This document shows, one piece after another, positions 18,879 to 36,040 of a stretch of 64,000 bases of DNA. Positions within the stretch are counted from its first letter, which is position 1. Each line of letters starts with the position of its first letter. Source of the stretch: a virus. Its lineage: Duplodnaviria; Heunggongvirae; Uroviricota; Caudoviricetes. Below the pieces are notes generated by a model. The model was not told where the DNA came from. It was given only the letters and a program-made list of their open reading frames with translations, and searched no databases. The DNA is taken from IMG/VR virus record IMGVR_UViG_3300023371_000080, one strand, 5' to 3'. A program made the position numbers and the translations under genes.

Positions 18879-18954
18879 TGGTGAGTCTGGAGAGATTCGA
18901 ACTCTCGACCCCGTGATTAAAAGTCACGTGCTCTGCCAACTGAGCTACAGACTC
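18879..18954 (-). tRNA. tRNA-Lys (anticodon UUU)
   Basis: rc: GAGTCTGTAGCTCAGTTGGCAGAGCACGTGACTTTTAATCACGGGGTCGAGAGTTCGAATCTCTCCAGACTCACCA, canonical cloverleaf. Confidence 0.75.
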
Positions 18955-18962
18955 ATATAAAG

Positions 18963-19015
18963 TGAGATTTCTAAAACCCTCCACAGTGGGAAACTCCATC
19001 TCGATGTTTTTTTAT
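18963..19015. repeat. conserved nested-hairpin element E1 immediately 5' of tRNA-Lys (hairpin + T7 on plus strand)
   Basis: GAGATTTCTAAAACC-CTCCACAGTGGGA-AACTCCATCTC GATGTTTTTTT; near-identical architecture to E2. Confidence 0.45.
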
Positions 19016-19043
19016 TACAGGAGGTGATCGTATGATGTACGAA

Positions 19044-19127
19044 TGGTGCAGATACTGGGATTCCAACCCAGACGCCTTGCAGCAATAGATCCTAAGTCTA
19101 TCGTGTCTTGCAGTTCCACCATATCTG
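19044..19127 (-). tRNA. class II tRNA, probably tRNA-Leu (UAG)
   Basis: rc: GCAGATA acceptor, anticodon arm ATAGA-CTTAGGA-TCTAT, long variable arm, T-arm CTGGGTTGGAATCCCAG, TATCTGC-A-CCA. Confidence 0.5.
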
Positions 19128-19131
19128 CATA

Positions 19132-19216
19132 TTGGTGCGAATGGTGGGACTTGAACCCACACGCTTTATAGCAATGGTGTTTGAGACCACATCGTCTGCC
19201 AATTCCGACACACTCG
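19132..19216 (-). tRNA. class II tRNA, probably tRNA-Leu (CAA)
   Basis: rc: GCGAGTG acceptor, anticodon loop CTCAAAC, T-arm GTGGGTTCAAGTCCCAC, CATTCGC-A-CCA. Confidence 0.6.
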
Positions 19217-19224
19217 CATATAGA

Positions 19225-19425: not shown

Positions 19426-19923
19426 TTATGACAAGAAATTTTTCGACTTATATTTATGTATGTTCTTGCCCTTATAATTGTCGGTTAAGGCATGACAATT
19501 AGGACATAATAATTGTAAATTTTCTATATTGTTATTTTCTTTATTTCCATCTTTATGATGTACTTCAAGTGGTATAGGAACATTATTCCATAATGTATTT
19601 TTACAACACTCACAAATATGTTCTTTAAGTCCCTCGCGAAGAAGTTTCTTTCTTATTTTGTTGGTTTGAACATTTTTACTTTTAATATATTCATTAAATG
19701 GAACATATCTATCACTTTCATAAGTTTTTCCAGATAACCAACCTTGTCCAGTGAAATGAGATATATCGAGATTTAATTCTTGAATCATTGATTGCAAAGT
19801 TATATAACTAGAACCGCACTTACTGTATCCTAATTTTTGAGATAATGTTGACCAACTATAACTTTCTTTTACATATTGTTCAATCTCTTGTCTGGTGTAA
19901 TTTCTCCATTTTGCTTTCTTCAT
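19426..19923 (-). CDS. HNH homing endonuclease inserted in tRNA island
   Basis: HNH motif EVHHKDGNKENNNIENLQLLCPNCHA; 165 aa. Confidence 0.8.
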   Translation of the reverse strand: MKKAKWRNYTRQEIEQYVKESYSWSTLSQKLGYSKCGSSYITLQSMIQELNLDISHFTGQGWLSGKTYESDRYVPFNEYIKSKNVQTNKIRKKLLREGLKEHICECCKNTLWNNVPIPLEVHHKDGNKENNNIENLQLLCPNCHALTDNYKGKNIHKYKSKNFLS

Positions 19924-20915: not shown

Positions 20916-21824
20916 CTAGTGGGCCGCCTTATCGGCTTCGTGAAGTTGCATTATATCATTATACAATTCTTCTCCCCAAAGCCTACGATACTTATTGTGC
21001 AACTTCTCATTATTATCCTTTTCCCAGAAGTAAGGTTGCATGTGCCAACGAATTAAAACTGCAACATACAGCAGATCTATCTTATCAGAAAAATCTTCGC
21101 GATAAAATAAACTATCATAGCTGCCTGTGTGCTCGTGGTTGTAATAATGAGCTTGTTCGGTTATCTCACCTTTTGTATTTTTGAATGTCTTGCAAAATGG
21201 TTTACCGCAATCGTGCAGCATTCCAGCGAATTTAAGTTCCTTCGACGTATTATTTAATTTAACACATACTGCTTCACAATGCTCGCCTAACGTTAAAGTA
21301 TGATGTGTATTATGTTGATTAAAATGTTTATTCGCAAGATAAAAATTGTTAGGGAGTCTATAATTCGTATCATAATGCATAACTATTATATCATCCCATC
21401 CCTCATAGTCCCACGGCGGATCAAAATTCGTATACATTCTTTTGATAACATACTCAGGCACTTTTCTGTCTCTTTTTGCACTACGCTCAAGACAGGTCTC
21501 GTATGGAGTCGCCATTAATACACAGACTTTTTTACAGGGAATATTCTTTAATTCCTGTAAAAACGCTTTACGCTCCTTATAGTGGACACAACAAGCATCA
21601 TATATACAACTTTTCCCACTCCTTAAATCATCCTTAACGCGCTGATGGAGTGTCTTGAAGACTAAGACGTTGTTTTCTTGATTATTAGTGTCTCCTGTAA
21701 GCTCCTCACGAATAGCGTCACTAGAATGAATATTGGCGTTGTAGTTCTTGGCAAGTCTTATGGCTTCTGTGGATTTGCCACTACAGGGTAAACCGCACAT
21801 CATCCAAAAAGTCGGTCTATTCAT
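20916..21824 (-). CDS. bifunctional polynucleotide kinase (P-loop) / HD-domain phosphohydrolase (RNA/DNA end-healing enzyme)
   Basis: N-terminal Walker A MMCGLPCSGKST (PNK/AAA_33-like), C-terminal HD signatures LHDCGK and NHEHTG. Confidence 0.6.
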   Translation of the reverse strand: MNRPTFWMMCGLPCSGKSTEAIRLAKNYNANIHSSDAIREELTGDTNNQENNVLVFKTLHQRVKDDLRSGKSCIYDACCVHYKERKAFLQELKNIPCKKVCVLMATPYETCLERSAKRDRKVPEYVIKRMYTNFDPPWDYEGWDDIIVMHYDTNYRLPNNFYLANKHFNQHNTHHTLTLGEHCEAVCVKLNNTSKELKFAGMLHDCGKPFCKTFKNTKGEITEQAHYYNHEHTGSYDSLFYREDFSDKIDLLYVAVLIRWHMQPYFWEKDNNEKLHNKYRRLWGEELYNDIMQLHEADKAAH

Positions 21825-22618
21825 TTGTCTATTTCCTTTCTAAAACTATGCTTTAACACATCAAATAACACGCTATTCATAATCTCATCAACCTCAGAGT
21901 CGATAACCAATGGGTGGGTATCCATATATTCTTGCTTTGTAAGTTTAACAAGATATTCAATGTTATTTGCCATTTGCCTTGCTTCTTCCAATGAATGAAT
22001 ATACTCAGCCTTAACGTTGATTAAATACTGAGGGTTCGTAGGAATAAGACATTCTGCATAAGAAGTTCCAGCGATATACCTATTAAGAAACTCTTCACAA
22101 CGAATAATGTGGTGCAATTGTTTATTGTCGTAACCATACTTTTTGATCTTTTCAATAAGTGTGGGATACGGATGTTCCATCGCTTTATGCTTTTCGTACA
22201 CCATTCCTGCAATGCAATTAACCGCCGCATAGTTATTATAGTGCGCTATCTTTTCATTGCTATCAAACATAGGTTGATATAAATCTGCATATTCTGGATT
22301 AAGATACTTATATTTCGTGAATAGGATTTCTATGAAGTTGATATTTTGCTTACGAAAACAATCGTGCATTAATCTGATATCTTTAATATCTATATGTTCG
22401 TTGCTCGGCAATATTAATGTTGTGCTTGCAGGTTTACGATTAAGCACGAAGTCTTCAAATGCGGGAATGACTATCGCCTTAGTGTCGATATCGCTGCCCT
22501 CATAATCAAGATGGTAGTTTTGGGAGCCTTGAAGAAAAACTCCCAAAACCTTATAGCCCAAAGAGGCGGCATAATCAAAATCGGATTTCAGTCTATTGAA
22601 AATTTTATCATCTTTCAT
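21821..22618 (-). CDS. Pol-beta-superfamily nucleotidyltransferase
   Basis: GSQNYHLDYEGSDIDTKAIV = GS-x10-SDxD nucleotidyltransferase motif; 265 aa. Confidence 0.5.
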   Translation of the reverse strand: MKDDKIFNRLKSDFDYAASLGYKVLGVFLQGSQNYHLDYEGSDIDTKAIVIPAFEDFVLNRKPASTTLILPSNEHIDIKDIRLMHDCFRKQNINFIEILFTKYKYLNPEYADLYQPMFDSNEKIAHYNNYAAVNCIAGMVYEKHKAMEHPYPTLIEKIKKYGYDNKQLHHIIRCEEFLNRYIAGTSYAECLIPTNPQYLINVKAEYIHSLEEARQMANNIEYLVKLTKQEYMDTHPLVIDSEVDEIMNSVLFDVLKHSFRKEIDK

Positions 22619-22628
22619 TTAAATCTCC

Positions 22629-23846
22629 TTAATTTCCAATCTCAATCAAATACTTAATAGTCATCTGGTCTTCCTTATACACTACAATCTCATCATTTCG
22701 AAGCATACCTCTATCGGCGTGTGCATGTAGGCAGTTTGCTCCCTGCTTAAACTGTTGTAACTTATTATAATCAAGGTTATAATACTTGCTGTCAAAATTG
22801 TACACATCATAAGGCGTTCCATAAGCCACATCAAAGATTGCCATATAAGCAGTGTTGTTACCGCCGTGAGCCCAATAAGAACCAGAGAGCGAGGTATAAC
22901 CAATACTCTTTGCACACTTGGGGGCGTAATACACTCCGTACCCAAACATCTTTCCTGTAATTACGGCATTAGTAGGTCTAAGTACTAAGCCTGTCTTAAT
23001 AATAGACCAGAAATTCTCACTACGACTGCCATGGAACAGAAGTCTAGTGTCCTTGATGTCATTCTCCTTAACAAACTTATCAAAACGCTCCTGAGTCTTC
23101 AGATTGGTAACTCTCCAAGCCTTTTTAAACTTATCAGCGGATTCTTTCATCAAAGTCTTAATTAGGGCAATATCATCTTTTGTAGTTTCTTCCATAACAA
23201 GACCAAGCTCTTCGAGAATGGTCTGCTGTTTCTTTTCGGTTGTGGTAACAGACTCAATCTCTGGCTTCACATAAATCTGTCCACGCATTACATCAAGAAG
23301 ATCTTGCTCCTTGGTGATAATCTTTGAAAAATCTTCTGTCTTATTTGCCAGACAATAACGTACATCACTCATTCTTCTAGGAATAACTGTAAACAAGTTA
23401 AGCAGATTGGCATTAAACGCATCAACGGTTATGCTATTATTGGCGAGCTCATCAATAATCTTCTGTGCTGCATCCACCATATCCTGAGTAACAGCAGATG
23501 CTTTTACAGTATAGTTCTTGTTAATAGTCTCACGGGCAAGACTCTGAAGCTTATCCACAATTGCTTTTATGGCTGCGTTCTCAATGTCCTTGTATGGGCT
23601 TTCAGGATTGGTAGAGGAAACTTCCTCCACCAAGTCCTTCTTAAGATCAGTTACATCCTGGTAACCCTTTTTGAGTTTTGATTTGATTTGTGAATCCCAT
23701 TTAGACATAGGATAATATGCTGTTGTTTTAGTTGCATCTACTCTGCCGTATTCAACACGGAACTGATTGCCTTCTGGAAAAAGATTATAGTACTTATTAT
23801 TATTTGCCGTAGTTACCATAATCAAATAAGTAGGTCTTACTTCCAT
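22629..23846 (-). CDS. poly(ADP-ribose) polymerase-like protein (WGR domain + PARP catalytic domain, H-Y-E type)
   Basis: N-term KYYNLFPEGNQFRVEYGRVDA (WGR-like); catalytic LLFHGSRSENFWSIIKTGL, GKMFGYGVYYA, NDEIVVY matching PARP1 LLWHGSR/GYMFGKGIYFA/YNEYIVY. Confidence 0.75.
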   Translation of the reverse strand: MEVRPTYLIMVTTANNNKYYNLFPEGNQFRVEYGRVDATKTTAYYPMSKWDSQIKSKLKKGYQDVTDLKKDLVEEVSSTNPESPYKDIENAAIKAIVDKLQSLARETINKNYTVKASAVTQDMVDAAQKIIDELANNSITVDAFNANLLNLFTVIPRRMSDVRYCLANKTEDFSKIITKEQDLLDVMRGQIYVKPEIESVTTTEKKQQTILEELGLVMEETTKDDIALIKTLMKESADKFKKAWRVTNLKTQERFDKFVKENDIKDTRLLFHGSRSENFWSIIKTGLVLRPTNAVITGKMFGYGVYYAPKCAKSIGYTSLSGSYWAHGGNNTAYMAIFDVAYGTPYDVYNFDSKYYNLDYNKLQQFKQGANCLHAHADRGMLRNDEIVVYKEDQMTIKYLIEIGN

Positions 23847-23858
23847 AGCACCCTCCTA

Positions 23859-24284
23859 TCAAATCTCACAAAACAGAATTTCAACATCCGTATCTTCAAA
23901 GACTTCACAAATAATATCGTAAACCTTGTCCCAATCGAGACGGTCGAGTCCCGATGCAATTTTCGGCATTGCAAGCTTAGTAGTAGCATTCGTTTCCATT
24001 ATGTCTCTCATAGTCTCAAGCGCTTCTTTAACCGCCTCGTATCTTGGCTTATGATAACACTTAGGCTTAGTTACAAGGTTAAATACATTATCAATAAGAA
24101 GCGCATCTCCGCCTTTGTAAGAGTACATATCATACTCTCTGAAGAGCTTAAATCTCATATTGTAAACTTCATCAAAAGTCTTTGCTATACCTGCACCAAG
24201 TGCAAAATCTGCACTAATGCAATGAGCAAGATAATAACCCTGAGGTACCGTAAATAAATCTCTCTGTTCAATGGTAATATTCAT
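23859..24284 (-). CDS. macrodomain protein (ADP-ribose binding/processing)
   Basis: YLAHCISADFALGAGIAKTF .. NVFNLVTK .. LAMPKIASGLDRLDW pattern of macro (A1pp/Poa1p-like) domains; 141 aa. Confidence 0.6.
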   Translation of the reverse strand: MNITIEQRDLFTVPQGYYLAHCISADFALGAGIAKTFDEVYNMRFKLFREYDMYSYKGGDALLIDNVFNLVTKPKCYHKPRYEAVKEALETMRDIMETNATTKLAMPKIASGLDRLDWDKVYDIICEVFEDTDVEILFCEI

Positions 24285-24302
24285 AATACTTCTCCTTCGT
24301 TA

Positions 24303-25358
24303 TTACTTTCCTTCATCGAAAATATCGGACGGAAGAATATACCGACCATCACTGCCTACCACAAGCGGAAGTTCTCCATTCCAACCTTCTGCCATAATCT
24401 TTTCAATAAGGGCATCGGTAATAGACTCTGCAATCTGCTTGTTCGCCTCTGCCTCTGCGGCAGCCTGAATTTTAAGCGCCTCGGCCTTTGCCTTTGCGAT
24501 CTCAATTTCTGCCTGAGCCTCCTTAAGCTTTGCCTGTGCCTTTGCTTCTGCGGCAATAACTTCTGCCTTTGCTTCAGCATCTGCTTTTGCAAGGTTGGCC
24601 TCATTCTTGTTCTCTTGGATAATCAAATCCTGCTCAGATGCAAACTTAGCATCAATTGCCTCCTGGATATCGGGATTCTCAAAAGAAAATCCTTCCTTAA
24701 TGCCAAGAACAGTAATGGTAATACCATATTCCTTGAAATATTCAACTACGGCAGTCTTGACCTTTTCTACAATTTCTGCCTTATGAGTATGAAGCTCAGT
24801 GCTCTTATACTGGCTAGTTGCGATATTAAACTGATCCTCAACCATCTTCTTGATATCAGTATCAATAATGGTTTCAAGAGGAGTATTGTTATAACGGTAA
24901 AGGAACTTAGCAGCATCCTTTTCCTCAATCATAGCCGTGCAGTTCATACCGACATAAATTCCAATGGCATCGGATGTTTCACCAAAAATAGCCTTATTGC
25001 TACTGGTTGCAGCAGAATCGCCAGATTCCCAAGAACGAGATACGGGCTTGCGCTCAACAACAATTACAGTTGCAGAAGGACGCCAGTTACCCATCCAATG
25101 ACGACGACCAGTCTGGACCCAGCGATGCGGGATCTGAATCTCTTTGGTTGCAACCTTGGTTTCGAGAAGCAGAGCCTCAGACTCAAAAGTGCCCTGATTG
25201 GTGGTGTCGCCTATAAGAGGAATGAGGAACGCAGTCTGCGAGGGTTCGATAGTCATAAATTCGGGCTTGTCGTAAGGTTTGCGGCAACTAGTGAAGCAGC
25301 AAAGAATGAGAGTAAGAAGTGTTGCGAGAATAAAAGTTCTAAAAATAGTCTTTTTCAT
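24303..25358 (-). CDS. SPFH/band-7 domain lipoprotein with Ala/Glu/Lys coiled-coil
   Basis: Lipobox LILCCFTSC, band-7 core, AEAKAEVIAAEAKAQAKLKEAQAEIEIAKAKAEALK region. Confidence 0.55.
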   Translation of the reverse strand: MKKTIFRTFILATLLTLILCCFTSCRKPYDKPEFMTIEPSQTAFLIPLIGDTTNQGTFESEALLLETKVATKEIQIPHRWVQTGRRHWMGNWRPSATVIVVERKPVSRSWESGDSAATSSNKAIFGETSDAIGIYVGMNCTAMIEEKDAAKFLYRYNNTPLETIIDTDIKKMVEDQFNIATSQYKSTELHTHKAEIVEKVKTAVVEYFKEYGITITVLGIKEGFSFENPDIQEAIDAKFASEQDLIIQENKNEANLAKADAEAKAEVIAAEAKAQAKLKEAQAEIEIAKAKAEALKIQAAAEAEANKQIAESITDALIEKIMAEGWNGELPLVVGSDGRYILPSDIFDEGK

Positions 25359-25642
25359 TATATATTAAGTTCCTTTTCTAATTTATTCATATAAATAGCG
25401 GAGTAAATGTTTCTTCCGCAGATAATACAAGTGAGAAGACGAATGATAGTAAATATCATAGGGACATAGTTCCAGAGCCTCCAAGTGGCATAGCTCATAT
25501 CATCGTTTTCAAGCTGACCTAGAGCCATGTCATTGGTAAATGTGGGCATAAATGCGTCAGAGATAATTGTCAATGCTATAAAAATTACAATTACCACAAT
25601 GAGATTTATAATAATTTTCTTAACCATTATTTTCCTCCACAA
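25358..25642 (-). CDS. small membrane protein
   Basis: 94 aa, two predicted TM helices. Confidence 0.4.
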   Translation of the reverse strand: MWRKIMVKKIIINLIVVIVIFIALTIISDAFMPTFTNDMALGQLENDDMSYATWRLWNYVPMIFTIIRLLTCIICGRNIYSAIYMNKLEKELNI

Positions 25643-25932
25643 AAAGGACAGTTGCTTGAAGAGAAGAGGATATAAGTGCCCTCAGCGCAGAAAATATTAT
25701 CATACTCTGCGGTTTTTACCTCAATGCCTGAACCTTCGTTTTCATACCACTTTTCAATGGTTGCGCAATGACCTTCTACTCCGTTGAAGAAGTGGATATG
25801 CCTAAAATCGTAGCTTCCCCAACCTATGCTCCTATTGTTTGCGCTCACTTCAGTGGGGCATAGAGTGATGAACGCGGAGACCATCATAGCTGATACAAGC
25901 AATGCGCAAATAACAATAACTACTTTATTCAT
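25627..25932 (-). CDS. small secreted/membrane Cys-containing protein
   Basis: Start reset to MNKVVIV (AGGAGG RBS); signal-like N-terminus; C-terminal NCPFCGGK. Confidence 0.4.
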   Translation of the reverse strand: MNKVVIVICALLVSAMMVSAFITLCPTEVSANNRSIGWGSYDFRHIHFFNGVEGHCATIEKWYENEGSGIEVKTAEYDNIFCAEGTYILFSSSNCPFCGGK

Positions 25933-27328
25933 TATTTGATTCCTCCTGGCTCTCTTCCATATCAGGAGCCTCTGCTTCAACCTTCACAATGCCCTCAAGA
26001 GCCTTGAAGAACCAATTCTTATGCTTATATGCACAGAACTTAGGACGGTTGATAATACGAACCACTACACCCTCACGAACATGCGTCTTACCAATGGGAT
26101 CGGGTCCATCATAGAACTCTTCGGCAGCTTTTATAACCATATCACCAACCGTGCCATCACCAATTAGATAATCGTGGTCATATCCATCTGGAGCAACTAG
26201 ATGCAGTCTATCGCTGCTTATTGTTGCCGTTCCAAATACAGGAACGCACTTAACACCCATCTGCTCACAACGATAACGCATAAAGTCAGGAGTGTATTCT
26301 ACGGTAAAGCCATCCTCATTGGTCATCGTCATACGATATACATAGATATCAGACTGAGGACCAACCCACACGACATCTTCATAGTGACCTTCGTCGGTGC
26401 CTTCGGGATCACATCCGTAAGAGAATACAGTAGTCTGTCCATACTGCTTAACAAAATCCTTATCATTAAGCTTCTTATTGTCGCCACTTGCCATAATGGG
26501 AGCCCCAGTATGAGTGAATCCTACGACTTCGTAGAAAATCTCCTCGCCCTTATTCAGCTTACCCTCAAAGAACTTTGAGTGTGCTTCACGGAACTCATTA
26601 GAACCATAATATCCACCTTCAAAATTCTCAAGTACGGTACGACGGGTACCAGATACATATCCCCAATCGTAGATAGGCTTACCTTCACGACGGAGAACCT
26701 TATCAATAAGAGTTCTCTTATACTTCTTGAACACGGGAAGATAACCAGTTCTCTGACTCGTTCCGTGCATCTTGAGCGTAATTTCAATCTCATCACCAGG
26801 CTTAAACGCTGCGAGGTTGTACGCAAGCTGCTCAGTGTCTGCGTGTTCTGCAAAAAGGGGCGCCACAGGAACCTTCTTCTTGCGAGTCTTATTACCCTCG
26901 GAATAATGTCCTCTTCTATTTTGCTTTCGAGGGATGTACTTACAACAAATCTCGTGACCATTGAAGTTGTCAATTCTATCACCCTCACGAAGAGCAGTAA
27001 TGTCTCCAAAGGATTCGAGCGCCTTTAGAGGAAGGAAGAGACCATCCGACTTCTCTCCACGAAGTTTGATTGCGGTTACATTTCTCTTGTCTGGGTCCAT
27101 ATAACCGCCGATGTTGTTTCCTGCATCATCCTTCTTGCGAAGCAAATTATTTGCCTCAGCGAACTCGACTGAGAGCTGACCATCCGAAGGAAAATACACA
27201 CCGAGCTGATTGTCTTCATACTCCATCGATACGATTACTGCGTTTCCAAAACACTCACCAATCTGAAGTCTATCGGCATTAGGATGCTTATGTAGATTCT
27301 TAATTCTTGTAATATAAGCGTTATACAT
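25925..27328 (-). CDS. ATP-dependent RNA ligase (Rnl2/Rnl5-like nucleotidyltransferase) with N-terminal tRNA-binding OB domain
   Basis: N-term HPNADRLQIGECFGNAVIV (Trbp111/MetRS-C-like tRNA_bind motif); ligase motif I KMHGTS, motif IV REGVVVRI, motif V AYKHKNWFFK. Confidence 0.65.
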   Translation of the reverse strand: MYNAYITRIKNLHKHPNADRLQIGECFGNAVIVSMEYEDNQLGVYFPSDGQLSVEFAEANNLLRKKDDAGNNIGGYMDPDKRNVTAIKLRGEKSDGLFLPLKALESFGDITALREGDRIDNFNGHEICCKYIPRKQNRRGHYSEGNKTRKKKVPVAPLFAEHADTEQLAYNLAAFKPGDEIEITLKMHGTSQRTGYLPVFKKYKRTLIDKVLRREGKPIYDWGYVSGTRRTVLENFEGGYYGSNEFREAHSKFFEGKLNKGEEIFYEVVGFTHTGAPIMASGDNKKLNDKDFVKQYGQTTVFSYGCDPEGTDEGHYEDVVWVGPQSDIYVYRMTMTNEDGFTVEYTPDFMRYRCEQMGVKCVPVFGTATISSDRLHLVAPDGYDHDYLIGDGTVGDMVIKAAEEFYDGPDPIGKTHVREGVVVRIINRPKFCAYKHKNWFFKALEGIVKVEAEAPDMEESQEESNNE

Positions 27329-27974
27329 TCTTCTTCATCTCCTCTGCTCTTACAATGGCCTCTGCCATCTCCTGGATTCGCTTCTCTCTTTCCATAGCAC
27401 GCTTCTTCGCCCAATGTGCCTTCACCTTCTGATAATTCTTTTCGGCCTTTGCCTTCTTTCGAGCTTCCTCTTCTGCTCTCTTCTTCTTGTCTGCTTCTGC
27501 CTTGTCGTAAAACTTAGTCGCATAAGAAAGCAACTTGCTAAGAACGGCTGTGCCTTCCTTACCAATCATTTCCTTGACAATACAACGAAGAAGTCCGTCC
27601 TCAAAGAAGTAGGGATCGTTACCCTGGACGGTCGCCGTCTGAGTGTCACCGTTTACAAAAGTCATCTTGATGGTGTTTTCGTTAAACACGCCGATAGACT
27701 TGATTGCAGGAATGAGATCCTGGCTGCCATCAAAGAAACCGTCCTTGTAGTATCGTGCAACAATTCGACCAAACTCAACTTCAAGCGACGAACGCTGGTC
27801 AGGTCTGACCTCAGGCTTCTTAGTTGCCTCTTCTATTGCAGAGGTTATATTGGAAAGTGAGTTGGAAGTTACAACCTCATTGACGAAATTCCAACAAGGC
27901 TCGCCGTCGTAAGTGTAAGTTACATTGCCATTATGGCCCGCTTTAATTGTCATTTTCTTTTTCTCCTTAATCAT
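27321..27974 (-). CDS. hypothetical protein with K/E/A-rich C-terminal helix
   Basis: 217-aa first gene of the operon downstream of promoter 27986..28019. Confidence 0.45.
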   Translation of the reverse strand: MIKEKKKMTIKAGHNGNVTYTYDGEPCWNFVNEVVTSNSLSNITSAIEEATKKPEVRPDQRSSLEVEFGRIVARYYKDGFFDGSQDLIPAIKSIGVFNENTIKMTFVNGDTQTATVQGNDPYFFEDGLLRCIVKEMIGKEGTAVLSKLLSYATKFYDKAEADKKKRAEEEARKKAKAEKNYQKVKAHWAKKRAMEREKRIQEMAEAIVRAEEMKKNV

Positions 27975-27985: not shown

Positions 27986-28019
27986 CATATTATAGCACAG
28001 TTTCTTTTATTTGTCAATA
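27986..28019 (-). promoter_or_regulatory. sigma70-type promoter with extended -10 and TTTACA(T)T repeats at 28028-28047
   Basis: minus strand TTGACAAATAAAAGAAACTGTGCTATAAT. Confidence 0.55.
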
Positions 28020-28041
28020 GACTTTGTGTATCGTTTACATT

Positions 28042-28782
28042 TTATTTACAATCAGGCTTAAATGTCGGTATTGGATTTAATTTGAATAAATTCTTCTGGT
28101 GAAGGTGATCAATTTTTGCCTTTGCTACTTCATCTTCGCATACACCAGTGCGAATATATTTATTCAATACTTCATAGGTAAACCCAAAGTTATCCTCGTC
28201 AGTTTTGCCACAGAGACCGTCTGAAGGTGTCTTGTGAGTCAACTCATATGGAAGTCCACAGGCATCGCCAATAGCAACCACTTCATCAGAAGTAAAGTTT
28301 AGTATGGGCATTAAATCTGCTACATTATCGCCCCACCTGGTGGAATAACCTATATATGCTTCTGAGGCATTATCTGTTCCAACAACACGTCCATTTACAC
28401 TTTGAGATATGGCATAAAGCGTTGCCATACGAATACGAGGAGGAAGATTTATGGTTGTCTGCTTGCTAATTTCAATATCCGTCGGAAACTGATTGTCAAT
28501 ACCAACAACAGCATCCCAAATATTCATAGTATAACTTTTAATCCCAAGACATTGAATAAGTTTATTAGAATCATCGATATCAGGCTGTACACCACAGGGC
28601 ATCTTTACACCGATTACTCTGTCCTTGCCAAGAGCTTCTACGCAAAGCGCAGCTACAACGCTTGAGTCTTTACCACCACTAATACCAATTACAGCATTAC
28701 AACCTTTTCCATTCTGTTCAAACCACCCTCTAATCCAAGCGACAATTCTATCTTTAATCTCTATCGCATTAAAATTATTCAT
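28042..28782 (-). CDS. nadE: NH3-dependent NAD+ synthetase
   Basis: PP-loop GISGGKDSSVVAALC; start set to MNNFNAIE with GGGGAGA RBS. Confidence 0.8.
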   Translation of the reverse strand: MNNFNAIEIKDRIVAWIRGWFEQNGKGCNAVIGISGGKDSSVVAALCVEALGKDRVIGVKMPCGVQPDIDDSNKLIQCLGIKSYTMNIWDAVVGIDNQFPTDIEISKQTTINLPPRIRMATLYAISQSVNGRVVGTDNASEAYIGYSTRWGDNVADLMPILNFTSDEVVAIGDACGLPYELTHKTPSDGLCGKTDEDNFGFTYEVLNKYIRTGVCEDEVAKAKIDHLHQKNLFKLNPIPTFKPDCK

Positions 28783-29182
28783 GTGTAATCTCCCCATTTT
28801 CAATTTTAGTAATTAATTTATCCAACATTCTATATACAGAAGGCAAGCCACCTCTATCATCAATATAAGCATTTGCATATGTTTTGCGCCCACCAAAAGA
28901 TATAGAACTGTCACAGTTAATACCTTTATATTTAATGCCTACATTTTCCATATACTCCTTGATTATTGGATGCTGCGCTTCGCCATTTCCTGTTAAAATA
29001 ACAACCTCTGAATAAGGCTCCCAACGTTTGAGGAGCGTAATAACATCACTATAAGAACGACCAAGTTTATGAAAATCATAGATGGTATCATCGAAGTCTA
29101 CGCAAAAGATGAGTTTGCCATACTTCTTGAATTCATCTTCAAGTCTTTGATAGCAATTTTCTTCAGAAAGATAAAAATCCAT
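28775..29182 (-). CDS. small HAD-like hydrolase
   Basis: FCVDFDDTIYDF (DxDxT) motif; 135 aa; overlapping start/stop with neighbours. Confidence 0.4.
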   Translation of the reverse strand: MDFYLSEENCYQRLEDEFKKYGKLIFCVDFDDTIYDFHKLGRSYSDVITLLKRWEPYSEVVILTGNGEAQHPIIKEYMENVGIKYKGINCDSSISFGGRKTYANAYIDDRGGLPSVYRMLDKLITKIENGEITHE

Positions 29183-30660
29183 TAAAAATTACCTCCGTGC
29201 AATCTATCTCTAATTTCTGCAAGAGTCTGCTCTTTAGTCATTACTCCATCTTTGAATATGGTGACTAAATGATTCTGATAATCATATTTTGCTTCATCCC
29301 ATGTAGCACCATCTATATAAACAAGTGCTTCTTTCTCTCGACTCCATCTAACGGAACAACATCCCTTCTGCGACTTCTTAAAACCACCATCTTTAGGATT
29401 CTTGAATATCGGATATGGCTTACCGTCAATCTCACAATAAGTCGCCTTGATGCAAGAACTAAAAGTATCTCTTGTGAAAGGCTTCAGAATACCATCTTCC
29501 TCAACACACTGGAACGAGAACGAACCAACACCAAGAGCAACATTGGAACAAGCAAATCCATTTTCCATAAGAATTTGATAAATCTGTTCGCAACGCTGGA
29601 TAGTAATACTGTCGCCATAAATTGCTTTCACATGAGGATTAAGCACTTTATATCCCTTACTATTAATAGTACCACCAAAGATATCCCAAAGTTTAAAAAC
29701 GGTTTTGGTTACAACCTCAACACAGTCACCAGAGTCACCACGCATAAGCATGCAACCATTGTGTGCAAGGATTTCTTCCTTAAGTCTAGGAAGAATATTG
29801 TCAATTACATTCCAATAATCATAAGAGTCAAGTACAGCAGAAAAACTTGTGTTAGGGTAAATTTCTGTAAGCAGTCTTCTAAGAAGAGTTTCCTCATCGC
29901 CATCAACGGCATAGTTACTGCACATTACAGAATGCTCAGTAGAAGGCGAACCAAAAGCCACAGGTTCTTTTGTACAATCACAGTTATAATTTGCCTCAAG
30001 GTAAGGAATTGTAGGAACAGTTGCCGTATTCAAGAAGGATAGACACCAACCAGCTCCCGCCTTTTCAGCAGATTGTAGACATTCTTCACCTCTAAAGTCG
30101 AATGCACCAAGTGCTCTTGCTCTCGGAATATTGTCATCACAAGTGAGGTCATAATACTTGTTGACAATTTCTCTATATGTATAACCAACAGTAGCAGCAA
30201 GCATTGGATGCCATATCTCAGCAGAAATAAGGGATTCTAAACTCTGAGGCAACCACGCAAAATCAGGGTGAGTGTTTGTAATACCAAACATCGGCACATG
30301 CATAGGTACAAGCGTTCCTTCGGGAAGTGCTACAATTTCAATAGGAAGATAGCCAAGCTTGTGAAGATGTTCAATTTTATCAATTTTATATGTGTCCTTG
30401 CCAAGAGTTGCATCCATAACTCTCTTATATTCAGAGATTACTTCATCAAAAGACTTGTTAAAGAATTCGTTGTTAAAATAATCAATAAGATAGGTCTTAA
30501 TGAATCCCTGAAGTCCAAACATTACCACCTTGTCCCATCTCTTTACTCTGCTCATGCGAGGAGTAAAGTAAGATACGGACTTAGTAATGCCCTTGGGGAG
30601 CATTTCGGCATGGACAGCCTTATAGAAATCAATTAACAACATAGGATTTGTTCTTCTCAT
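29182..30660 (-). CDS. nadV: nicotinamide phosphoribosyltransferase family protein (NAMPT/NadV-like; alternatively Namat-like NAD-forming transferase)
   Basis: N-terminal LLIDFYKAVH (cf. NAMPT DSYK), MLMRGDSGD phosphoribosyl-binding region; 492 aa. Confidence 0.7.
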   Translation of the reverse strand: MRRTNPMLLIDFYKAVHAEMLPKGITKSVSYFTPRMSRVKRWDKVVMFGLQGFIKTYLIDYFNNEFFNKSFDEVISEYKRVMDATLGKDTYKIDKIEHLHKLGYLPIEIVALPEGTLVPMHVPMFGITNTHPDFAWLPQSLESLISAEIWHPMLAATVGYTYREIVNKYYDLTCDDNIPRARALGAFDFRGEECLQSAEKAGAGWCLSFLNTATVPTIPYLEANYNCDCTKEPVAFGSPSTEHSVMCSNYAVDGDEETLLRRLLTEIYPNTSFSAVLDSYDYWNVIDNILPRLKEEILAHNGCMLMRGDSGDCVEVVTKTVFKLWDIFGGTINSKGYKVLNPHVKAIYGDSITIQRCEQIYQILMENGFACSNVALGVGSFSFQCVEEDGILKPFTRDTFSSCIKATYCEIDGKPYPIFKNPKDGGFKKSQKGCCSVRWSREKEALVYIDGATWDEAKYDYQNHLVTIFKDGVMTKEQTLAEIRDRLHGGNF

Positions 30661-31463
30661 AATTCAAATACCTCAATCTTTTCGTGTTCCTTTGTAAAAA
30701 TACTGTTAGTCGTATAAACTCTTTCAATGAAACCGCTTGTAAGAAGTTCGCCTTCGAGGATAGTGTTTTCACAATGAGTTATATAAAGATATATGTTCTT
30801 AGCACCAGCCTCTTTGAGTGCTTTAGCAGAATGATAGAAAGTGCCACCACGAGAACAAATGTCGTCAATAATTAAAACATCTCTATCTTTTACAACATCT
30901 TTGTTCATTAGTTCAAGACCAAGAATCTTTCCTGTTTCCCAATCACGCTTTTTAATTCCGAAAGCATAAGCACCCTTTACATAATCTGTGCCACGCTTCA
31001 TTGCGCCTTCATCTGGATAAAAAGCAACCAAGCCATTTTTATTTGGGATAGCTTCAATTGTCCTAGTAATCATTTCCAGTGGATGTTTAACCTTAACATT
31101 GTTAATAAGCGCTGCACAAACATTGCTGTGCGGGTCAAGAATTCTCACTTCAGTAAAATTGAGACCGTTAATCACATCTGCGAAATGCTTCAGAGTAAAA
31201 AATTCATTAGAGCTTTTTACTCTGTCCATACGAGCGTGTGGACAATAAGGCATTTCAAGAATCATATCTTGTCTATCAAAATGTTTGCGAATGCAAATTA
31301 TAGTAAACAGTTCGGCGTCGTTTTCATAGTGCCAAGTGAGTATCTTTGGAGATTTGCCAAACCAATCCAAACTAAAAATAGGCTCTGTATAATCGGTTTC
31401 AATTCTTAAAGAGTTGTCTGGAAAACGAGCCTGTGTTATAAGCTTATCATTTATTTTAATCAT
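30657..31463 (-). CDS. ribose-phosphate pyrophosphokinase-like protein (PRPP synthetase family; possibly ADP-ribose pyrophosphokinase)
   Basis: PRPP-binding PRTase motif VLIIDDICSRGGT; start set to MIKIND (GGAGA RBS) to abut pncA stop. Confidence 0.6.
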   Translation of the reverse strand: MIKINDKLITQARFPDNSLRIETDYTEPIFSLDWFGKSPKILTWHYENDAELFTIICIRKHFDRQDMILEMPYCPHARMDRVKSSNEFFTLKHFADVINGLNFTEVRILDPHSNVCAALINNVKVKHPLEMITRTIEAIPNKNGLVAFYPDEGAMKRGTDYVKGAYAFGIKKRDWETGKILGLELMNKDVVKDRDVLIIDDICSRGGTFYHSAKALKEAGAKNIYLYITHCENTILEGELLTSGFIERVYTTNSIFTKEHEKIEVFEL

Positions 31464-31465
31464 AA

Positions 31466-31975
31466 TTATTCTCCAATCACATTTATCTGGCACATTTTCA
31501 TTGTGGTAAGTGCCGCCTGATGAGTCTCAGGAGTTACACCAGCACAACAACTTGCATCTACTGTAATGCTGATTTCGGGGAACTGAGCCTTGAGAATAAG
31601 TGCATTAGACACTACGCAAATGTCGGTGCAAAGACCTACGAGTTCAATTTCTTCAAAATCAAACAAGTCGTTCCAATATGTGCAACCGAAGGTGTATTTA
31701 TCGACGTGAACACATTCTGGAGAATTAATTTCCTTTGTTATAAGCCAGCCCTCGGTGCCACGAATACAGTGTTCGACAGGCAAGTGCTTGCCCTCGTTGG
31801 TGGTAAGATAATATGCTGAATGAGTATCTCTTGTAAAGATAATCTCATCTCCACGAGCCTTATACTCTTCAATCTTCCTCTTTACATTTGGCACAATAGC
31901 CTGCGCCTCCTTAGTTCCGAGGGCGCCGTCAATAAAATCATTCTGCATGTCAATTACAATAAGCGTTCTTTTCAT
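31466..31975 (-). CDS. pncA: isochorismatase-family nicotinamidase (PncA-like)
   Basis: LIVIDMQNDF, catalytic-Cys region VGLCTDICV; 169 aa. Confidence 0.6.
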   Translation of the reverse strand: MKRTLIVIDMQNDFIDGALGTKEAQAIVPNVKRKIEEYKARGDEIIFTRDTHSAYYLTTNEGKHLPVEHCIRGTEGWLITKEINSPECVHVDKYTFGCTYWNDLFDFEEIELVGLCTDICVVSNALILKAQFPEISITVDASCCAGVTPETHQAALTTMKMCQINVIGE

Positions 31976-32014: not shown

Positions 32015-32048
32015 TGTATTTTATCATATATTTTTAAATTTGTCAATA
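32015..32048 (-). promoter_or_regulatory. promoter of NAD operon with TTTACATT repeats at 32058-32080
   Basis: minus strand TTGACA (32041-32046) -17- TAAAAT; leader AACAAAATGATTTAAAAATCAAAGGAG. Confidence 0.45.
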
Positions 32049-32143
32049 ACTTACGCTTCTTATTTACATTTTATTTACATTTGCACCTCACAGTCCTCAA
32101 AAGGTGCAAATATTGCACTTTTAAAGGGTGCTGTAGGTGCAAA

Positions 32144-35434: not shown

Positions 35435-36040
35435 TTAAATCTCGTCCTCTTCTTCGGCCGAGCCCTCATTCAAGAATGCCGTAAACTCGTCATACTTCCG
35501 CTGCTTAATTTTTCCAGGTTTCCCCTTGATATTGTAGGTAAGATACTTGTCGAAGAGCTCCTTGATTTCGCGCTGGGTATTTTTTCTTCCTTGCTGGAGC
35601 CCATCTCTGTAGCCTTTATTCGACTTGGCGTCACCGAGTGCCGCCTTGCCCTCGCCTTGGCTACCAGTTGTCTTATTACGCAGTTGAAATCCTTGGTCAG
35701 CGTAACACTTAATCCAATACTGCTCTCTGCCATCAAGCTCGTCTTCTGGGCAATGGCAGATTATCTCAACGTGGTAACCATAGGGATTGGTTTCTTCATC
35801 ATAAAACTTATGTTTCTTAATACTACAGTCGATATGTTGATATCCACTAAGATGTTCTGCAAGTCTCTTTAATAAGTTCTTGGCTTGCCCAACATAAGCA
35901 AACTTAAAACCGTTCTCGTCTGTACGATAAAATACATAAAGGCCTGAATCTTCCGTTGCAATAGGACACACCTTCCGTATCTTATCTTCATTAGCTTTTC
36001 TTATAGCCATTATCTGTCTGTAATTCGTAGCCATAACCAA
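35435..36040 (-). CDS. GIY-YIG nuclease domain protein (homing-endonuclease-like)
   Basis: GLYVFYR (GIY) .. YVGQAKNLLKRLAEH (YIG) .. E; 201 aa. Confidence 0.6.
   Translation of the reverse strand: MVMATNYRQIMAIRKANEDKIRKVCPIATEDSGLYVFYRTDENGFKFAYVGQAKNLLKRLAEHLSGYQHIDCSIKKHKFYDEETNPYGYHVEIICHCPEDELDGREQYWIKCYADQGFQLRNKTTGSQGEGKAALGDAKSNKGYRDGLQQGRKNTQREIKELFDKYLTYNIKGKPGKIKQRKYDEFTAFLNEGSAEEEDEI

What the first reader, a model, noticed from the sequence alone, without database searches (positions are those of the whole stretch)
28042..31975. NAD+ salvage/reconstitution operon immediately upstream of the PARP/macro/RNA-repair operon
Seen: five translationally coupled genes with ATGA/TAATG overlaps.
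- PncA-like nicotinamidase (DMQNDF, GLCTDICV).
- PRPP-synthetase-like protein (VLIIDDICSRGGT).
- NAMPT-family protein (LLIDFYK, RGDSGD).
- Small HAD phosphatase.
- NadE (SGGKDS).

Established: phages encode NadV/NatV. NAD-reconstitution pathways (NARP1 = PRPP-synthetase-like Adps + NAMPT-like Namat; NARP2) let phages overcome NAD-depleting defences such as Thoeris, DSR, SIR2 and SEFIR.

Inference: the Prs-like + NAMPT-like pair may be a NARP1-type ADPR-to-NAD route, with PncA/NadE giving a deamidated branch. Together with the neighbouring PARP (which consumes NAD and yields nicotinamide) and macrodomain (which yields ADP-ribose), the two operons could form a closed NAD/ADP-ribose cycle.
Basis: partly seen in the sequence, partly recalled or inferred. 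Interest (0 to 1): 0.72.

Follow-up and report, generated by a model that had tools for sequence, protein, structure and literature searches.

The report
Nicotinate-based NAD-rebuilding operon in gut phage
A gut phage carries a five-gene operon that most likely rebuilds the cofactor NAD+ from the fragments left by bacterial NAD-destroying defences, but apparently through nicotinic acid rather than nicotinamide, a version of this phage counter-defence pathway that I could not find described.

Summary
Window 28042-31975 (minus strand) holds five tightly packed genes, PncA, Adps-like, Namat-like, a small HAD phosphatase and NadE, between two copies of one phage promoter type.

The Prs-like and NAMPT-like proteins belong to the NARP1 enzymes, not to housekeeping Prs/NadV. 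The Prs-like protein is 38% identical to SPbetaL1 Adps (E 3e-51). The NAMPT-like protein scores 406 bits against the Namat crystal structure, against about 157-176 for NAMPTs.

The Namat is not canonical. The Asp that hydrogen-bonds nicotinamide (D215) is Ala, and pocket residue A242 is Ser. Across IMG/VR loci this A/S-type pocket goes with PncA+NadE neighbours (99 of 104). D-type Namats never have them (0 of 29). Eighty bacterial-genome loci and a second viral scan repeat the pattern.

Best reading (0.6):
- PncA converts nicotinamide to nicotinate.
- Adps converts ADPR to ADPR-PP.
- The Namat variant joins nicotinate to ADPR-PP, giving NaAD.
- NadE converts NaAD to NAD+.

No paper in the searched library links Namat to nicotinate, NaAD, PncA or NadE. 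The HAD gene shares its slot, mutually exclusively, with Adpp-like macro phosphatases. The link to the neighbouring PARP operon is not conserved. All chemistry is inferred.

The parts
32018..32076 (-). Operon promoter. It consists of a tandem TGTAAA upstream element, -35 TTGACA, a 17-nt spacer and an extended -10 (TGATAAAAT). It is followed by a conserved ACAAAATGATT box and an RBS before PncA.
   Evidence: The scan scores 11/12 with TG. The same architecture occurs at six minus-strand sites in the window.
31466..31975 (-). PncA-type nicotinamidase (169 aa). Proposed reaction: nicotinamide to nicotinate plus NH3.
   Evidence: - Pfam PF00857 6e-28. Best PDB hit is pyrazinamidase/nicotinamidase 1ILW at 8.5e-13.
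- Catalytic D9/K93/C116 and metal ligands D50/H52/H69 are conserved in 36-37 of 37 cassette homologues.
30657..31463 (-). Adps (ADP-ribose pyrophosphate synthetase, Prs-like, 268 aa). Proposed reaction: ADPR + ATP to ADPR-PP + AMP.
   Evidence: - 38% identical, E 3e-51, over full length to the biochemically characterised SPbetaL1 Adps. Prs structures score no better than 2.5e-15.
- Below all NCBIfam Prs cut-offs. PHROG 619 scores 1e-67.
- The catalytic Lys (SPbetaL1 K162) is conserved.
- No position is conserved-but-different between cassette Adps and classical Adps.
29182..30660 (-). Namat-family transferase with a remodelled pyridine pocket (492 aa). Proposed reaction: nicotinate + ADPR-PP to NaAD + PPi.
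   Evidence: - 405.8 bits against SPbetaL1 Namat 9W5X, against 176 for Xanthomonas NAMPT and 157 for human NAMPT.
- The catalytic core is invariant. D215 is Ala (A213) and A242 is Ser (S240). G213N, S239G, H207W, V304L and P307G also differ.
- The clamp keeps GS-F-x-F and R38 but carries a 9-aa insertion.
28775..29182 (-). Small cap-less HAD-type phosphatase (135 aa), an accessory gene. The candidate substrate is a phosphorylated ADP-ribose, but the substrate is unknown.
   Evidence: - Motifs D29xD31xT33, T64, K100 and D108-D109 are invariant.
- AF2 model: pLDDT 79, pTM 0.71.
- Foldseek top hits are HAD subfamily III phosphatases, with weak scores (E 3.9e-3, probability 0.99).
- It occupies the slot that holds a Poa1p/Adpp-like macro domain in other cassettes: HAD 15, macro 44, both 0, out of 104.
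- It also follows Namat in Bacillus phage Belinda and in phAss-1.
28042..28782 (-). NH3-dependent NAD synthetase NadE (246 aa). Proposed reaction: NaAD + ATP + NH3 to NAD+.
   Evidence: - Pfam PF02540 2e-50. TIGR00552 scores 171 bits against a cut-off of 63.65.
- The PP-loop SGGxDS is invariant.
- Best PDB hits are the archaeal NADS 2E18 (3e-34) and the F. tularensis enzyme 3FIU (1e-31).
27989..28047 (-). Promoter of the next operon (217-aa protein, RNA ligase, SPFH, macro, PARP, kinase-HD). It marks the 3' boundary of the NAD operon.
   Evidence: A 12/12 sigma-70 match with TG. It has the same architecture as the promoter at 32018-32076.

Best explanation
The five genes form one operon that encodes a nicotinate-dependent (deamidated) version of the phage NAD+ reconstitution pathway NARP1.

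**Proposed steps**
1. NAD+ is cleaved to ADP-ribose and nicotinamide. The usual source would be a host defence NADase (SIR2, TIR or SEFIR). In this phage its own PARP plus macro domain could also contribute.
2. PncA hydrolyses nicotinamide to nicotinate.
3. Adps uses ATP to pyrophosphorylate ADP-ribose, giving ADPR-PP.
4. The Namat-family enzyme, whose nicotinamide pocket has been rebuilt, joins nicotinate to ADPR-PP. This would give nicotinic acid adenine dinucleotide (NaAD).
5. NadE amidates NaAD with ammonia and ATP to NAD+.
6. The small HAD phosphatase is an optional accessory. It probably converts a phosphorylated ADP-ribose into usable ADP-ribose, as the macro-domain Adpp does in NARP1-AP.

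**What is shown and what is inferred**
- Shown here: gene identities, operon structure, family membership, the active-site substitutions and their tight association with PncA/NadE.
- Inferred from family knowledge: the PncA, Adps and NadE reactions.
- Inferred and new: step 4, the nicotinate transfer.
- Speculative: the HAD substrate, and the counter-defence role in this particular host.
For: **1. NARP1 identity**
- Adps: 38% identity, E 3e-51 to SPbetaL1 Adps, against no better than 2.5e-15 for Prs structures.
- Namat: 406 bits to the SPbetaL1 Namat structure against 157-176 for NAMPTs.
- In an NJ tree Namat separates from NadV at 100% bootstrap.
- The adps-namat ATGA overlap matches the arrangement in SPbetaL1.

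**2. Remodelled pocket**
- The paper lists seven nicotinamide-pocket residues: F189, R192, D215, A242, R306, D13', Y15' (PMC12774641).
- Five are invariant. D215 and A242 are replaced by A213 and S240.
- Seven positions in or next to pocket residues (G213, D215, S239, A242, H207, V304, P307) are identical in D-type Namat and in canonical NadV. All are changed in this clade.
- Asp219 of human NAMPT, the equivalent residue, is described as fundamental for substrate specificity (PMC7096376).

**3. Association with PncA and NadE**
- Unique Namat sequences with at least 3 kb of flank: A/S-type 99 of 104 have both genes; D/E-type 0 of 29 have either. Fisher p = 2e-24, but see the evidence against on non-independence.
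- Replicated in 80 GTDB genome loci: all A-type, 72 with the full gene order.
- Replicated in a further viral scan: 55 of 59 A/S- or S/S-type with both genes; 0 of 17 D-type.
- It holds in the deeply divergent phAss-1, which has no clamp insertion.
- It holds in S/S-type loci with a different gene order, L310 and L363.
- Among 150 cluster representatives at 50% identity, the two pocket positions co-vary almost perfectly: 94 of 96 D/E have A242, and 50 of 52 non-D have S242.

**4. ADP-ribose still looks like the feedstock**
- Every complete A/S-type locus keeps Adps.
- Cassette Adps shares all 21 invariant residues with classical Adps, and no position is conserved-but-different.
- The Namat clamp hallmarks are retained: GS[FY] instead of the GGG seen in the two phage NadV references, plus R40 and TRD.
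- 44 of 104 cassettes carry a Poa1p/Adpp-like macro phosphatase between Namat and NadE.

**5. Completeness**
- PncA, Adps, Namat variant and NadE together make a closed route from nicotinamide plus ADPR to NAD+. No NadD or NMNAT is needed, and none is in the operon.

**6. Enzymes look active**
- The PncA triad and metal site and the NadE PP-loop are intact.
Against: - There is no biochemical evidence. Nicotinate + ADPR-PP to NaAD has not been reported in the library I searched.
- The published Namat signature GSX-phi-X-phi-X-phi-TRD is broken by a 9-aa insertion. The position-7 aromatic (Y396), which contacts adenine, is lost. Preference for ADPR-PP over PRPP could therefore be weakened.
- NadE is nearly as similar to the F. 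tularensis NMN synthetase (3FIU, 1e-31) as to an archaeal NAD synthetase (2E18, 3e-34).
- The A/S-type Namats form essentially one deep clade (99% bootstrap), with phAss-1 unresolved. The association may rest on one or two evolutionary events rather than on about 100 independent ones.
- Five A/S-type loci lack PncA or NadE within 6 kb.
- The cassette also sits in an ordinary chromosomal context in Konateibacter massiliensis. A housekeeping salvage role is therefore possible.
Confidence: 0.6

Rival explanations
1. A Preiss-Handler-like PRPP route.
- The Prs-like protein makes PRPP.
- The NAMPT-family enzyme has become a nicotinate phosphoribosyltransferase (nicotinate + PRPP to NaMN).
- Host NadD makes NaAD and phage NadE finishes. 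Alternatively NadE acts as an NMN synthetase and a host NMNAT finishes.
For: - The same D-to-A/S pocket change would fit nicotinate use with either donor.
- The clamp helix is disrupted by an insertion and Y396 is lost.
- NadE resembles the F. tularensis NMN synthetase at 1e-31.
- A chromosomal copy in Konateibacter looks like an ordinary salvage operon.
- SPbetaL1 Namat can use PRPP in vitro (PMC12774641).
Against: - The Prs-like protein lies with Adps, not Prs. It shows no conserved difference from classical Adps. SPbetaL1 Adps gave no product in the paper's assay for Prs activity (10.1101/2024.02.11.579819).
- GS[FY], R40 and TRD of the adenine clamp are kept. About 9 of about 50 A/S-type cluster representatives, and phAss-1, keep the full classical clamp.
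- Adpp-like macro phosphatases, which make ADPR, sit inside 44 of 104 cassettes.
- The route would need a host enzyme that the cassette never carries.
Confidence: 0.12
2. An ordinary nicotinamide-using NARP1, with PncA and NadE as independent boosters of the host's own deamidated salvage.
For: All four families are individually known. NARP1 operons often pick up accessory genes such as the Adpp macro domain and RyDEP.
Against: - The Asp that hydrogen-bonds nicotinamide is absent in all 155 A/S-type loci, and A242 is always Ser.
- PncA would destroy the Namat substrate.
- D-type Namats never have PncA or NadE nearby: 0 of 29 and 0 of 17.
Confidence: 0.08
3. The chemistry is the same, but the purpose differs. 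The cassette is a general NAD+/ADP-ribose recycling module. Phages would have acquired it from Clostridia to supply their own NAD consumers (NAD-dependent DNA ligase, PARP) rather than specifically to counter NAD-depleting defence.
For: - The phage encodes LigA and a PARP-domain protein.
- The cassette is chromosomal and outside any recognisable prophage in Konateibacter massiliensis.
- 80 loci occur in Bacillota and other genomes or MAGs.
- A housekeeping role has been proposed for bacterial chromosomal NARP1 (PMC12774641).
Against: - LigA yields NMN + AMP, not ADPR, so it does not feed this route.
- The flanking PARP operon is not conserved with the cassette.
- Classical NARP1 is experimentally a counter-defence.
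- Adpp-like accessory genes point to defence products such as ADPR-1''-phosphate.
Confidence: 0.25

Closest known systems
NARP1 (Adps + Namat) of phages Bas63, SPbetaL1 and FADO (Osterman et al. 2024; Namat structures 9W5W/9W5X)
   Same: - Adps directly upstream of, and overlapping, Namat.
- Both proteins fall in the Adps and Namat clades.
- The catalytic Lys of Adps is conserved.
- The catalytic His, the ribose and phosphate ligands, R40, GS[FY] and TRD of Namat are conserved.
   Different: - The nicotinamide-binding Asp215 is Ala, Ala242 is Ser, and several neighbouring residues are changed.
- The clamp helix carries a 9-aa insertion and lacks the Y396 aromatic.
- The operon additionally and consistently contains PncA and NadE.
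- The predicted product of the transferase is NaAD, not NAD+.
NARP1-AP (NARP1 plus the macro-domain ADPR-1''-phosphate phosphatase Adpp, Vibrio phage Gary; bioRxiv 10.64898/2026.01.28.702374)
   Same: An accessory hydrolase gene lies inside the operon next to Namat. In 44 of 104 related cassettes that gene is a Poa1p/Adpp-like macro domain.
   Different: - In this window the slot holds a HAD-type phosphatase with no sequence relation to macro domains.
- The window's own macro domain lies 4 kb away and is TARG1-like, not Poa1p-like.
- The HAD substrate is untested.
Bacterial Preiss-Handler salvage (PncA, PncB, NadD, NadE)
   Same: It starts with PncA and ends with NadE, and it passes through a deamidated dinucleotide.
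   Different: The operon has no PncB and no NadD. An Adps/Namat pair takes their place, so the ADP-ribose moiety would be recycled whole instead of being rebuilt from PRPP and ATP.
NARP2 (NadV NAMPT + NMNAT/Nudix, Vibrio phage KVP40) and NARP3 (PnuC + NadR, Bas30; PMC13464706)
   Same: These are also phage-encoded NAD+ restoration systems.
   Different: - The window protein is not NadV-like: the clamp reads GSF rather than GGG, and it lies in a separate clade at 100% bootstrap.
- The operon has no NMNAT, PnuC or NadR.
Chromosomal bacterial NARP1 (Paenibacillus foliorum; PMC12774641)
   Same: The cassette also occurs in bacterial chromosomes, for example Konateibacter massiliensis.
   Different: The P. 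foliorum Namat is 72% identical to SPbetaL1 Namat and was shown to work with nicotinamide, so presumably D-type. The Clostridial copies found here are A-type and carry PncA and NadE.

Membership tests
NARP1 | The Prs-like protein belongs to the Adps clade, separate from PRPP synthetases. | tested here: met
   - E 3e-51, 38% identity over full length to SPbetaL1 Adps.
- Best Prs structure scores 2.5e-15.
- Below all NCBIfam Prs cut-offs, for example 89.6 bits against 113.
- PHROG 619 scores 1e-67.
- No formal Prs-rooted tree was built.
NARP1 | The Adps catalytic lysine (K162 in SPbetaL1) is present. | tested here: met
   It aligns to K in GIKKR, which is K171 of the 268-aa protein. The residue is invariant in 139 Adps sequences.
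NARP1 | adps lies immediately next to namat (true for 97% of Adps in Osterman et al.). | tested here: met
   ATGA overlap at 30657-30660. All complete related loci keep Adps.
NARP1 | The NAMPT-like protein belongs to the Namat clade, not to NAMPT/NadV. | tested here: met
   405.8 bits to 9W5X, against 175.6 for 7YQO and 157 for human NAMPT. The NJ tree gives 100% support for Namat against NadV.
NARP1 | The Namat selectivity-clamp helix motif GSX-phi-X-phi-X-phi-TRD has aromatics at positions 3 and 7. | tested here: not met
   The window reads GSFSFQ-CVEEDGILKPF-TRD. The position-3 aromatic is kept, a 9-aa insertion is present, and Y396 aligns to Pro.
NARP1 | The selectivity-clamp loop has its stacking residue (R40 in SPbetaL1). 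| tested here: met
   R38 in the window. Arg occurs in 145 of 155 A/S-type loci.
NARP1 | The nicotinamide-binding pocket has Asp215 hydrogen-bonding nicotinamide. | tested here: not met
   The window has Ala213. The position is A or S in 155 of 155 loci of this clade. A242 is also replaced by Ser.
NARP1 | Activity: ADPR + ATP + nicotinamide gives NAD+. | not testable with these tools
   This needs enzymology.
NARP1-AP | A Poa1p-like macro-domain ADPR-1''-phosphate phosphatase (Adpp) lies in the operon. | tested here: not met
   - The window slot holds a HAD protein.
- The window macro domain (23859-24284) lies in the next operon and is TARG1/OARD1-like at 6e-24.
- Related cassettes do carry Poa1p-like macro domains.
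Nicotinamidase (PncA) | A Asp-Lys-Cys catalytic triad and a Asp/His/His metal site. | tested here: met
   D9, K93 and C116, plus D50, H52 and H69, are conserved in 36-37 of 37 homologues. The best solved homologue is a pyrazinamidase/nicotinamidase. The match falls below the NCBIfam equivalog cut-off.
NH3-dependent NAD synthetase (NadE) | A single synthetase domain with the SGGxDS PP-loop, scoring above the family cut-off. | tested here: met
   TIGR00552 scores 171.3 bits against a cut-off of 63.65. The protein has 246 aa and no glutaminase domain. The PP-loop is invariant.
NH3-dependent NAD synthetase (NadE) | Preference for NaAD over NaMN, which distinguishes NADS from the Francisella-type NMN synthetase. 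| tested here: inconclusive
   2E18 (NADS) scores 3e-34 and 3FIU (F. tularensis) 1e-31. The archaeal short NadE from M. jannaschii is a true NADS with no appreciable NMN synthetase activity (PMC3376133). I had no residue-level discriminator available.
HAD phosphatase superfamily | Motifs I-IV (DxDxT, S/T, K, DD) and a Rossmannoid HAD fold. | tested here: met
   - The motifs are invariant.
- The AF2 model scores pLDDT 79.
- Foldseek top hits are HAD subfamily III enzymes, but weakly (E 3.9e-3, TM about 0.47).
- There is no significant Pfam or PDB sequence hit.
Preiss-Handler pathway | PncB (NAPRT) and NadD are present. | tested here: not met
   Neither is in the operon or in the annotated stretch 13.8-37.6 kb. 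The rest of the window was not scanned.

The most novel reading that the evidence does not exclude
The Namat variant catalyses a reaction I could not find described: nicotinate + ADP-ribose pyrophosphate gives NaAD + PPi.

- PncA, Adps, the Namat variant and NadE would then be a self-contained four-enzyme NAD+ reconstitution pathway.
- The pathway is abundant in gut phages and also sits in chromosomes of Clostridia. It makes up roughly a third of the nearest 150 Namat-family clusters.
- The small HAD protein would be a non-homologous replacement for the macro-domain ADPR-1''-phosphate phosphatase. That would extend the route to products of RES-type NAD+ phosphorylases.
Probability: 0.5. Interest if true: 0.85.

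Novelty: new variant of a known kind. Interest (0 to 1): 0.75.

Why it matters
NAD+ depletion is described as one of the commonest bacterial anti-phage strategies, and NARP1 as the commonest phage answer.

If this reading is right:
- A large, previously unrecognised branch of NARP1 runs through nicotinate and NaAD. It is dominant in uncultivated gut phages and present in Lachnospiraceae and other Clostridia.
- This would add a new enzyme reaction to NAD metabolism.
- It would correct widespread generic annotation of these genes as 'nicotinate/nicotinamide phosphoribosyltransferase' and 'ribose-phosphate pyrophosphokinase'.
- It gives a two-residue sequence marker for base specificity in the NAMPT/Namat family (D215/A242 against A-or-S/S).
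- It raises a testable question: why do some hosts force phages onto the deamidated route? Candidate reasons are host PncA competition, retention of charged nicotinate, or the irreversibility of the NadE step.
- It nominates a HAD phosphatase as a second type of NARP1 accessory enzyme.

Tried and rejected
- **DNA-level search of 50,697 phage records.** It found only one distant unannotated relative (MT835544, 67% identity over 30% of the query). No cultured relative is available.
- **HAD protein.** Pfam at E up to 5, NCBIfam and a PDB sequence search gave nothing significant. Only the motifs, PHROG 1238 (labelled 'phosphoheptose isomerase') and a weak fold match support the assignment.
- **Neighbourhoods of A/S-type Namats that keep the classical short clamp.** I tried to reach them by scanning viral contigs with representatives P0262 and P0272. 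The scans returned only lineages already seen. phAss-1 remains the single context for that subtype.
- **Residue-level discriminators of NAD synthetase against NMN synthetase.** I looked for them in Sorci et al. 2009, but the paper is not held.
- **NARP3 as a possible match.** Rejected, because NARP3 is PnuC + NadR.
- **The 120-aa ORF between PncA and Adps in relatives as a possible RyR-domain RyDEP.** No Pfam hit.
- **A first promoter regular expression.** It found nothing because of wrong spacing. The upstream-element search worked.
- **A 'closed PARP/macro/NARP cycle' as a conserved design.** Rejected, because the flanks are not shared by related loci.
- **A second AF2 job for the Namat.** I did not run it. 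Coordinates are not returned, so pocket distances could not be measured.

Full report
**1. Observation**

Window 28042-31975 carries five consecutive minus-strand ORFs.
- An isochorismatase/PncA-type protein, 31466-31975, 169 aa.
- A Prs-like protein, 30657-31463, 268 aa when started at the ATG.
- A NAMPT-family protein, 29182-30660, 492 aa.
- A 135-aa protein, 28775-29182.
- NadE, 28042-28782, 246 aa.

Family searches agree with the gene identities. Independent gene calls on 25 metagenomic contigs that carry the identical Namat give the same five products.

The junctions are TAA-tt-ATG, ATGA, TAATG and an 8-nt overlap. A near-consensus extended -10 promoter precedes PncA, and a perfect one follows NadE. 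Both belong to a promoter family that recurs six times on the coding strand of the window. The five genes are therefore a discrete operon.

**2. What the Prs-like and NAMPT-like proteins are**

- The best solved relative of the NAMPT-like protein is the Namat of Bacillus phage SPbetaL1 (9W5X/9W5W, 405.8 bits, E 1.9e-120). The Xanthomonas and human NAMPTs score 176 and 157 bits.
- I fetched the SPbetaL1 NARP1 locus. The window Prs-like protein is 38% identical to the characterised Adps over its full length (E 3e-51). PRPP synthetase structures reach at best 2.5e-15, and all NCBIfam Prs models fall below cut-off.
- The Adps catalytic lysine is conserved.
- An NJ tree separates Namat from phage NadV with 100% bootstrap.

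This is a NARP1-type pair.

**3. The Namat is not canonical**

The structural paper on Namat (PMC12774641) lists the nicotinamide pocket as F189, R192, D215, A242, R306, D13' and Y15'. D215 hydrogen-bonds nicotinamide.
- In the window five of these residues are unchanged. D215 is Ala213 and A242 is Ser240.
- The equivalent Asp219 of human NAMPT is described as fundamental for substrate specificity (PMC7096376). From my own recollection of Khan et al. 2006, a D219S mutant accepts nicotinic acid. I could not verify this in the library.
- A scan for clade-discriminating positions found further changes: G213N, S239G, H207W, V304L and P307G.
- At all of these positions the nicotinamide-using D-type Namats and the distant NadV enzymes share one residue, and this clade has another.
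- The adenine clamp is partly retained. GSF instead of the GGG seen in the two phage NadV references, R38, and TRD are present. The clamp helix carries a 9-aa insertion that removes the Y396 aromatic.

**4. Comparative test**

Six scans of IMG/VR gave 146 unique Namat sequences from the first four, plus further ones from the last two. I annotated the flanks with HMMs built from the cassette.

| Data set | A/S-type with PncA and NadE | D/E-type with PncA or NadE |
|---|---|---|
| Unique sequences, at least 3 kb flank | 99 of 104 | 0 of 29 |
| Later viral scan | 55 of 59 | 0 of 17 |
| Bacterial species-representative genomes | 80 loci, all A-type; 72 with order PncA-Adps-Namat-(x)-NadE | none retrieved |

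- In the first set, every A/S-type locus with complete flanks also has Adps and Ser at position 242.
- The published gut phage phAss-1 (OQ749652, genetic code 15) has the same five-gene order. Its Namat has A/S but no clamp insertion. Its paper mentions the nicotinamidase only in a table.
- Two S/S-type loci keep the association with a different gene order.
- Among the 150 best cluster representatives at 50% identity, positions 215 and 242 co-vary almost perfectly. About a third are A/S- or S/S-type, and some of these have the classical short clamp.

Caveat: the A/S-type sequences form one deep clade (99% bootstrap), and phAss-1 is unresolved. The Fisher p of 2e-24 therefore overstates independence. 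The stronger argument is retention across a clade that spans down to about 40% identity, across phage and chromosomal contexts, and across gene-order changes.

**5. Is ADP-ribose still the feedstock?**

- Cassette Adps and classical Adps share 21 invariant residues. No position is conserved in both groups yet different between them.
- Both groups lack the Thr found at this position of the ribose-5-phosphate loop in the one Prs aligned here (4TWB).
- The slot between Namat and NadE holds a Poa1p/Adpp-like macro domain in 44 of 104 unique cassettes, the HAD protein in 15, nothing in 45, and never both.
- These macro proteins match yeast Poa1p ADPR-1''-phosphate phosphatase. They also match phage genes annotated as such. 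This is the family shown to extend NARP1 against RES-type NAD+ phosphorylases (bioRxiv 10.64898/2026.01.28.702374).

An enzyme that makes ADPR inside the operon argues for ADPR, not PRPP, as the donor precursor.

**6. The HAD protein**

- It has no significant Pfam or PDB sequence hit.
- HAD motifs I-IV are invariant.
- An AF2 model (pLDDT 79) finds cap-less subfamily III HAD phosphatases at its top Foldseek hits, though with weak scores.
- Homologues also follow a D-type Namat in Bacillus phage Belinda, in the order Adps-Namat-HAD. It is therefore a NARP1 accessory independent of PncA and NadE.
- Its mutually exclusive slot-sharing with Adpp suggests an analogous function. That is inference only.

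**7. Mechanism proposed**

| Step | Enzyme | Reaction | Basis |
|---|---|---|---|
| 1 | PncA | nicotinamide to nicotinate | Family; triad and metal site intact |
| 2 | Adps | ADPR to ADPR-PP | Homology to SPbetaL1 Adps |
| 3 | Namat variant | nicotinate + ADPR-PP to NaAD | Inferred; new reaction |
| 4 | NadE | NaAD to NAD+ | Passes TIGR00552; PP-loop intact |

The set is self-sufficient and needs no NadD or NMNAT. I put this at 0.6.

The main rival (0.12) is a PRPP-based Preiss-Handler-like route that depends on host NadD. It is favoured by the broken clamp motif and by the similarity of NadE to the Francisella NMN synthetase. The archaeal short NadE from M. jannaschii is a true NAD synthetase (PMC3376133). 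The rival is disfavoured by the Adps evidence and by the Adpp association.

An ordinary nicotinamide-using NARP1 with independent boosters (0.08) conflicts with the loss of D215 and with PncA destroying the substrate.

**8. Biological role and context**

- The phage genome is about 172 kb.
- Related cassettes sit mostly in Lachnospiraceae and other Clostridia MAGs and in a few isolates. The endolysin domains (amidase_2 + SH3) do not conflict with such a host, but the host is inferred.
- In Konateibacter massiliensis the four-gene cassette lies between ordinary chromosomal genes, with no phage genes within 8 kb. The module may therefore have originated as, or also serve as, a bacterial NAD/ADPR recycling pathway.
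- The counter-defence role is extrapolated from classical NARP1.
- The neighbouring operon is real. It encodes a PARP catalytic-domain protein, a TARG1-like macro domain, an SPFH protein, an RNA ligase and a kinase-HD protein. It is not linked to the cassette in 49 related loci. The 'closed cycle' is at most a feature of this phage lineage.

**9. Novelty**

Literature searches found the following:
- NARP1, NARP1-AP, NARP2 and NARP3 (PnuC + NadR).
- RyDEP-assisted NARP1.
- Chromosomal NARP1.

No paper connected Namat or Adps with nicotinic acid, NaAD, PncA or NadE. The library is incomplete, so prior description elsewhere cannot be excluded. I classify the finding as a new variant of a known kind. 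Interest is 0.75.

Noticed in passing
window minus strand, motif copies ending at 13668, 28047, 32076, 35430, 45365 and 50819: A recurring phage promoter architecture. Its order is TGTAAATAAA[AT]TGTAAA, about 15 nt, TTGACAAAT, 17 nt, TGnTATAAT, then a conserved ACAAAATGATT box before the RBS. It heads the NAD operon, the PARP/RNA-repair operon, the DnaE gene and others, which suggests co-regulation.
   Followed up: partly
window 13821-15788 (-): An NAD-dependent DNA ligase (LigA: adenylation, OB, HhH and BRCT domains). The phage's own replication therefore consumes NAD+.
   Followed up: partly
window 20916-27974 (-): A second operon. It encodes a 217-aa unknown protein, an RNA ligase (25925-27328), an SPFH-like protein (24303-25358), a TARG1/OARD1-like macro domain (23859-24284, 6e-24 to 4J5R), a PARP catalytic-domain protein (22629-23846, PF00644 1e-23), a 265-aa unknown protein and a kinase+HD protein (20916-21824). 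A phage PARP paired with a TARG1-like eraser is unusual. Its target was not investigated.
   Followed up: partly
L289 (Konateibacter massiliensis NZ_LT860099.1) 6696-10207: PncA-Adps-Namat(A-type)-NadE lies in a plain chromosomal context. The neighbours are a LacI regulator, a FecCD ABC transporter, two-component systems and an EamA transporter. No phage genes lie within 8 kb.
   Followed up: partly
L213 (phage phAss-1, OQ749652) 1896-6334: A published code-15 gut phage carries the same five-gene cassette. Its Namat has the A/S pocket but the classical short clamp helix (GAYTYQYVTRD). It branches outside both main Namat clades.
   Followed up: partly
cluster representatives P0242-P0390: Many Namat-family representatives are 550-1114 aa long. 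They match the query in 2-4 stretches that break near query residues about 250 and about 318-326. This indicates large insertions, possibly inteins or homing endonucleases.
   Followed up: no
L009:8028-8825, L006:8853-9215 and equivalents: Some cassettes carry an HNH endonuclease ORF between PncA and Adps. About 15 carry a conserved 120-aa ORF of unknown function there, with no Pfam hit.
   Followed up: partly
L013:11488-12243; L256:9491-11437; L170:5986-7926: Domain-architecture variants occur: a HAD protein with an N-terminal extension of about 115 aa, a 648-aa NadE fusion, and a 646-aa S/S-type Namat.
   Followed up: no
window 17590-19217 (-) and 19426-19923, 35435-36040: A cluster of six tRNA genes (Pro, Gln, Ser, Lys, Leu, Leu). 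There are also HNH and GIY-YIG endonuclease genes near the replication genes.
   Followed up: no
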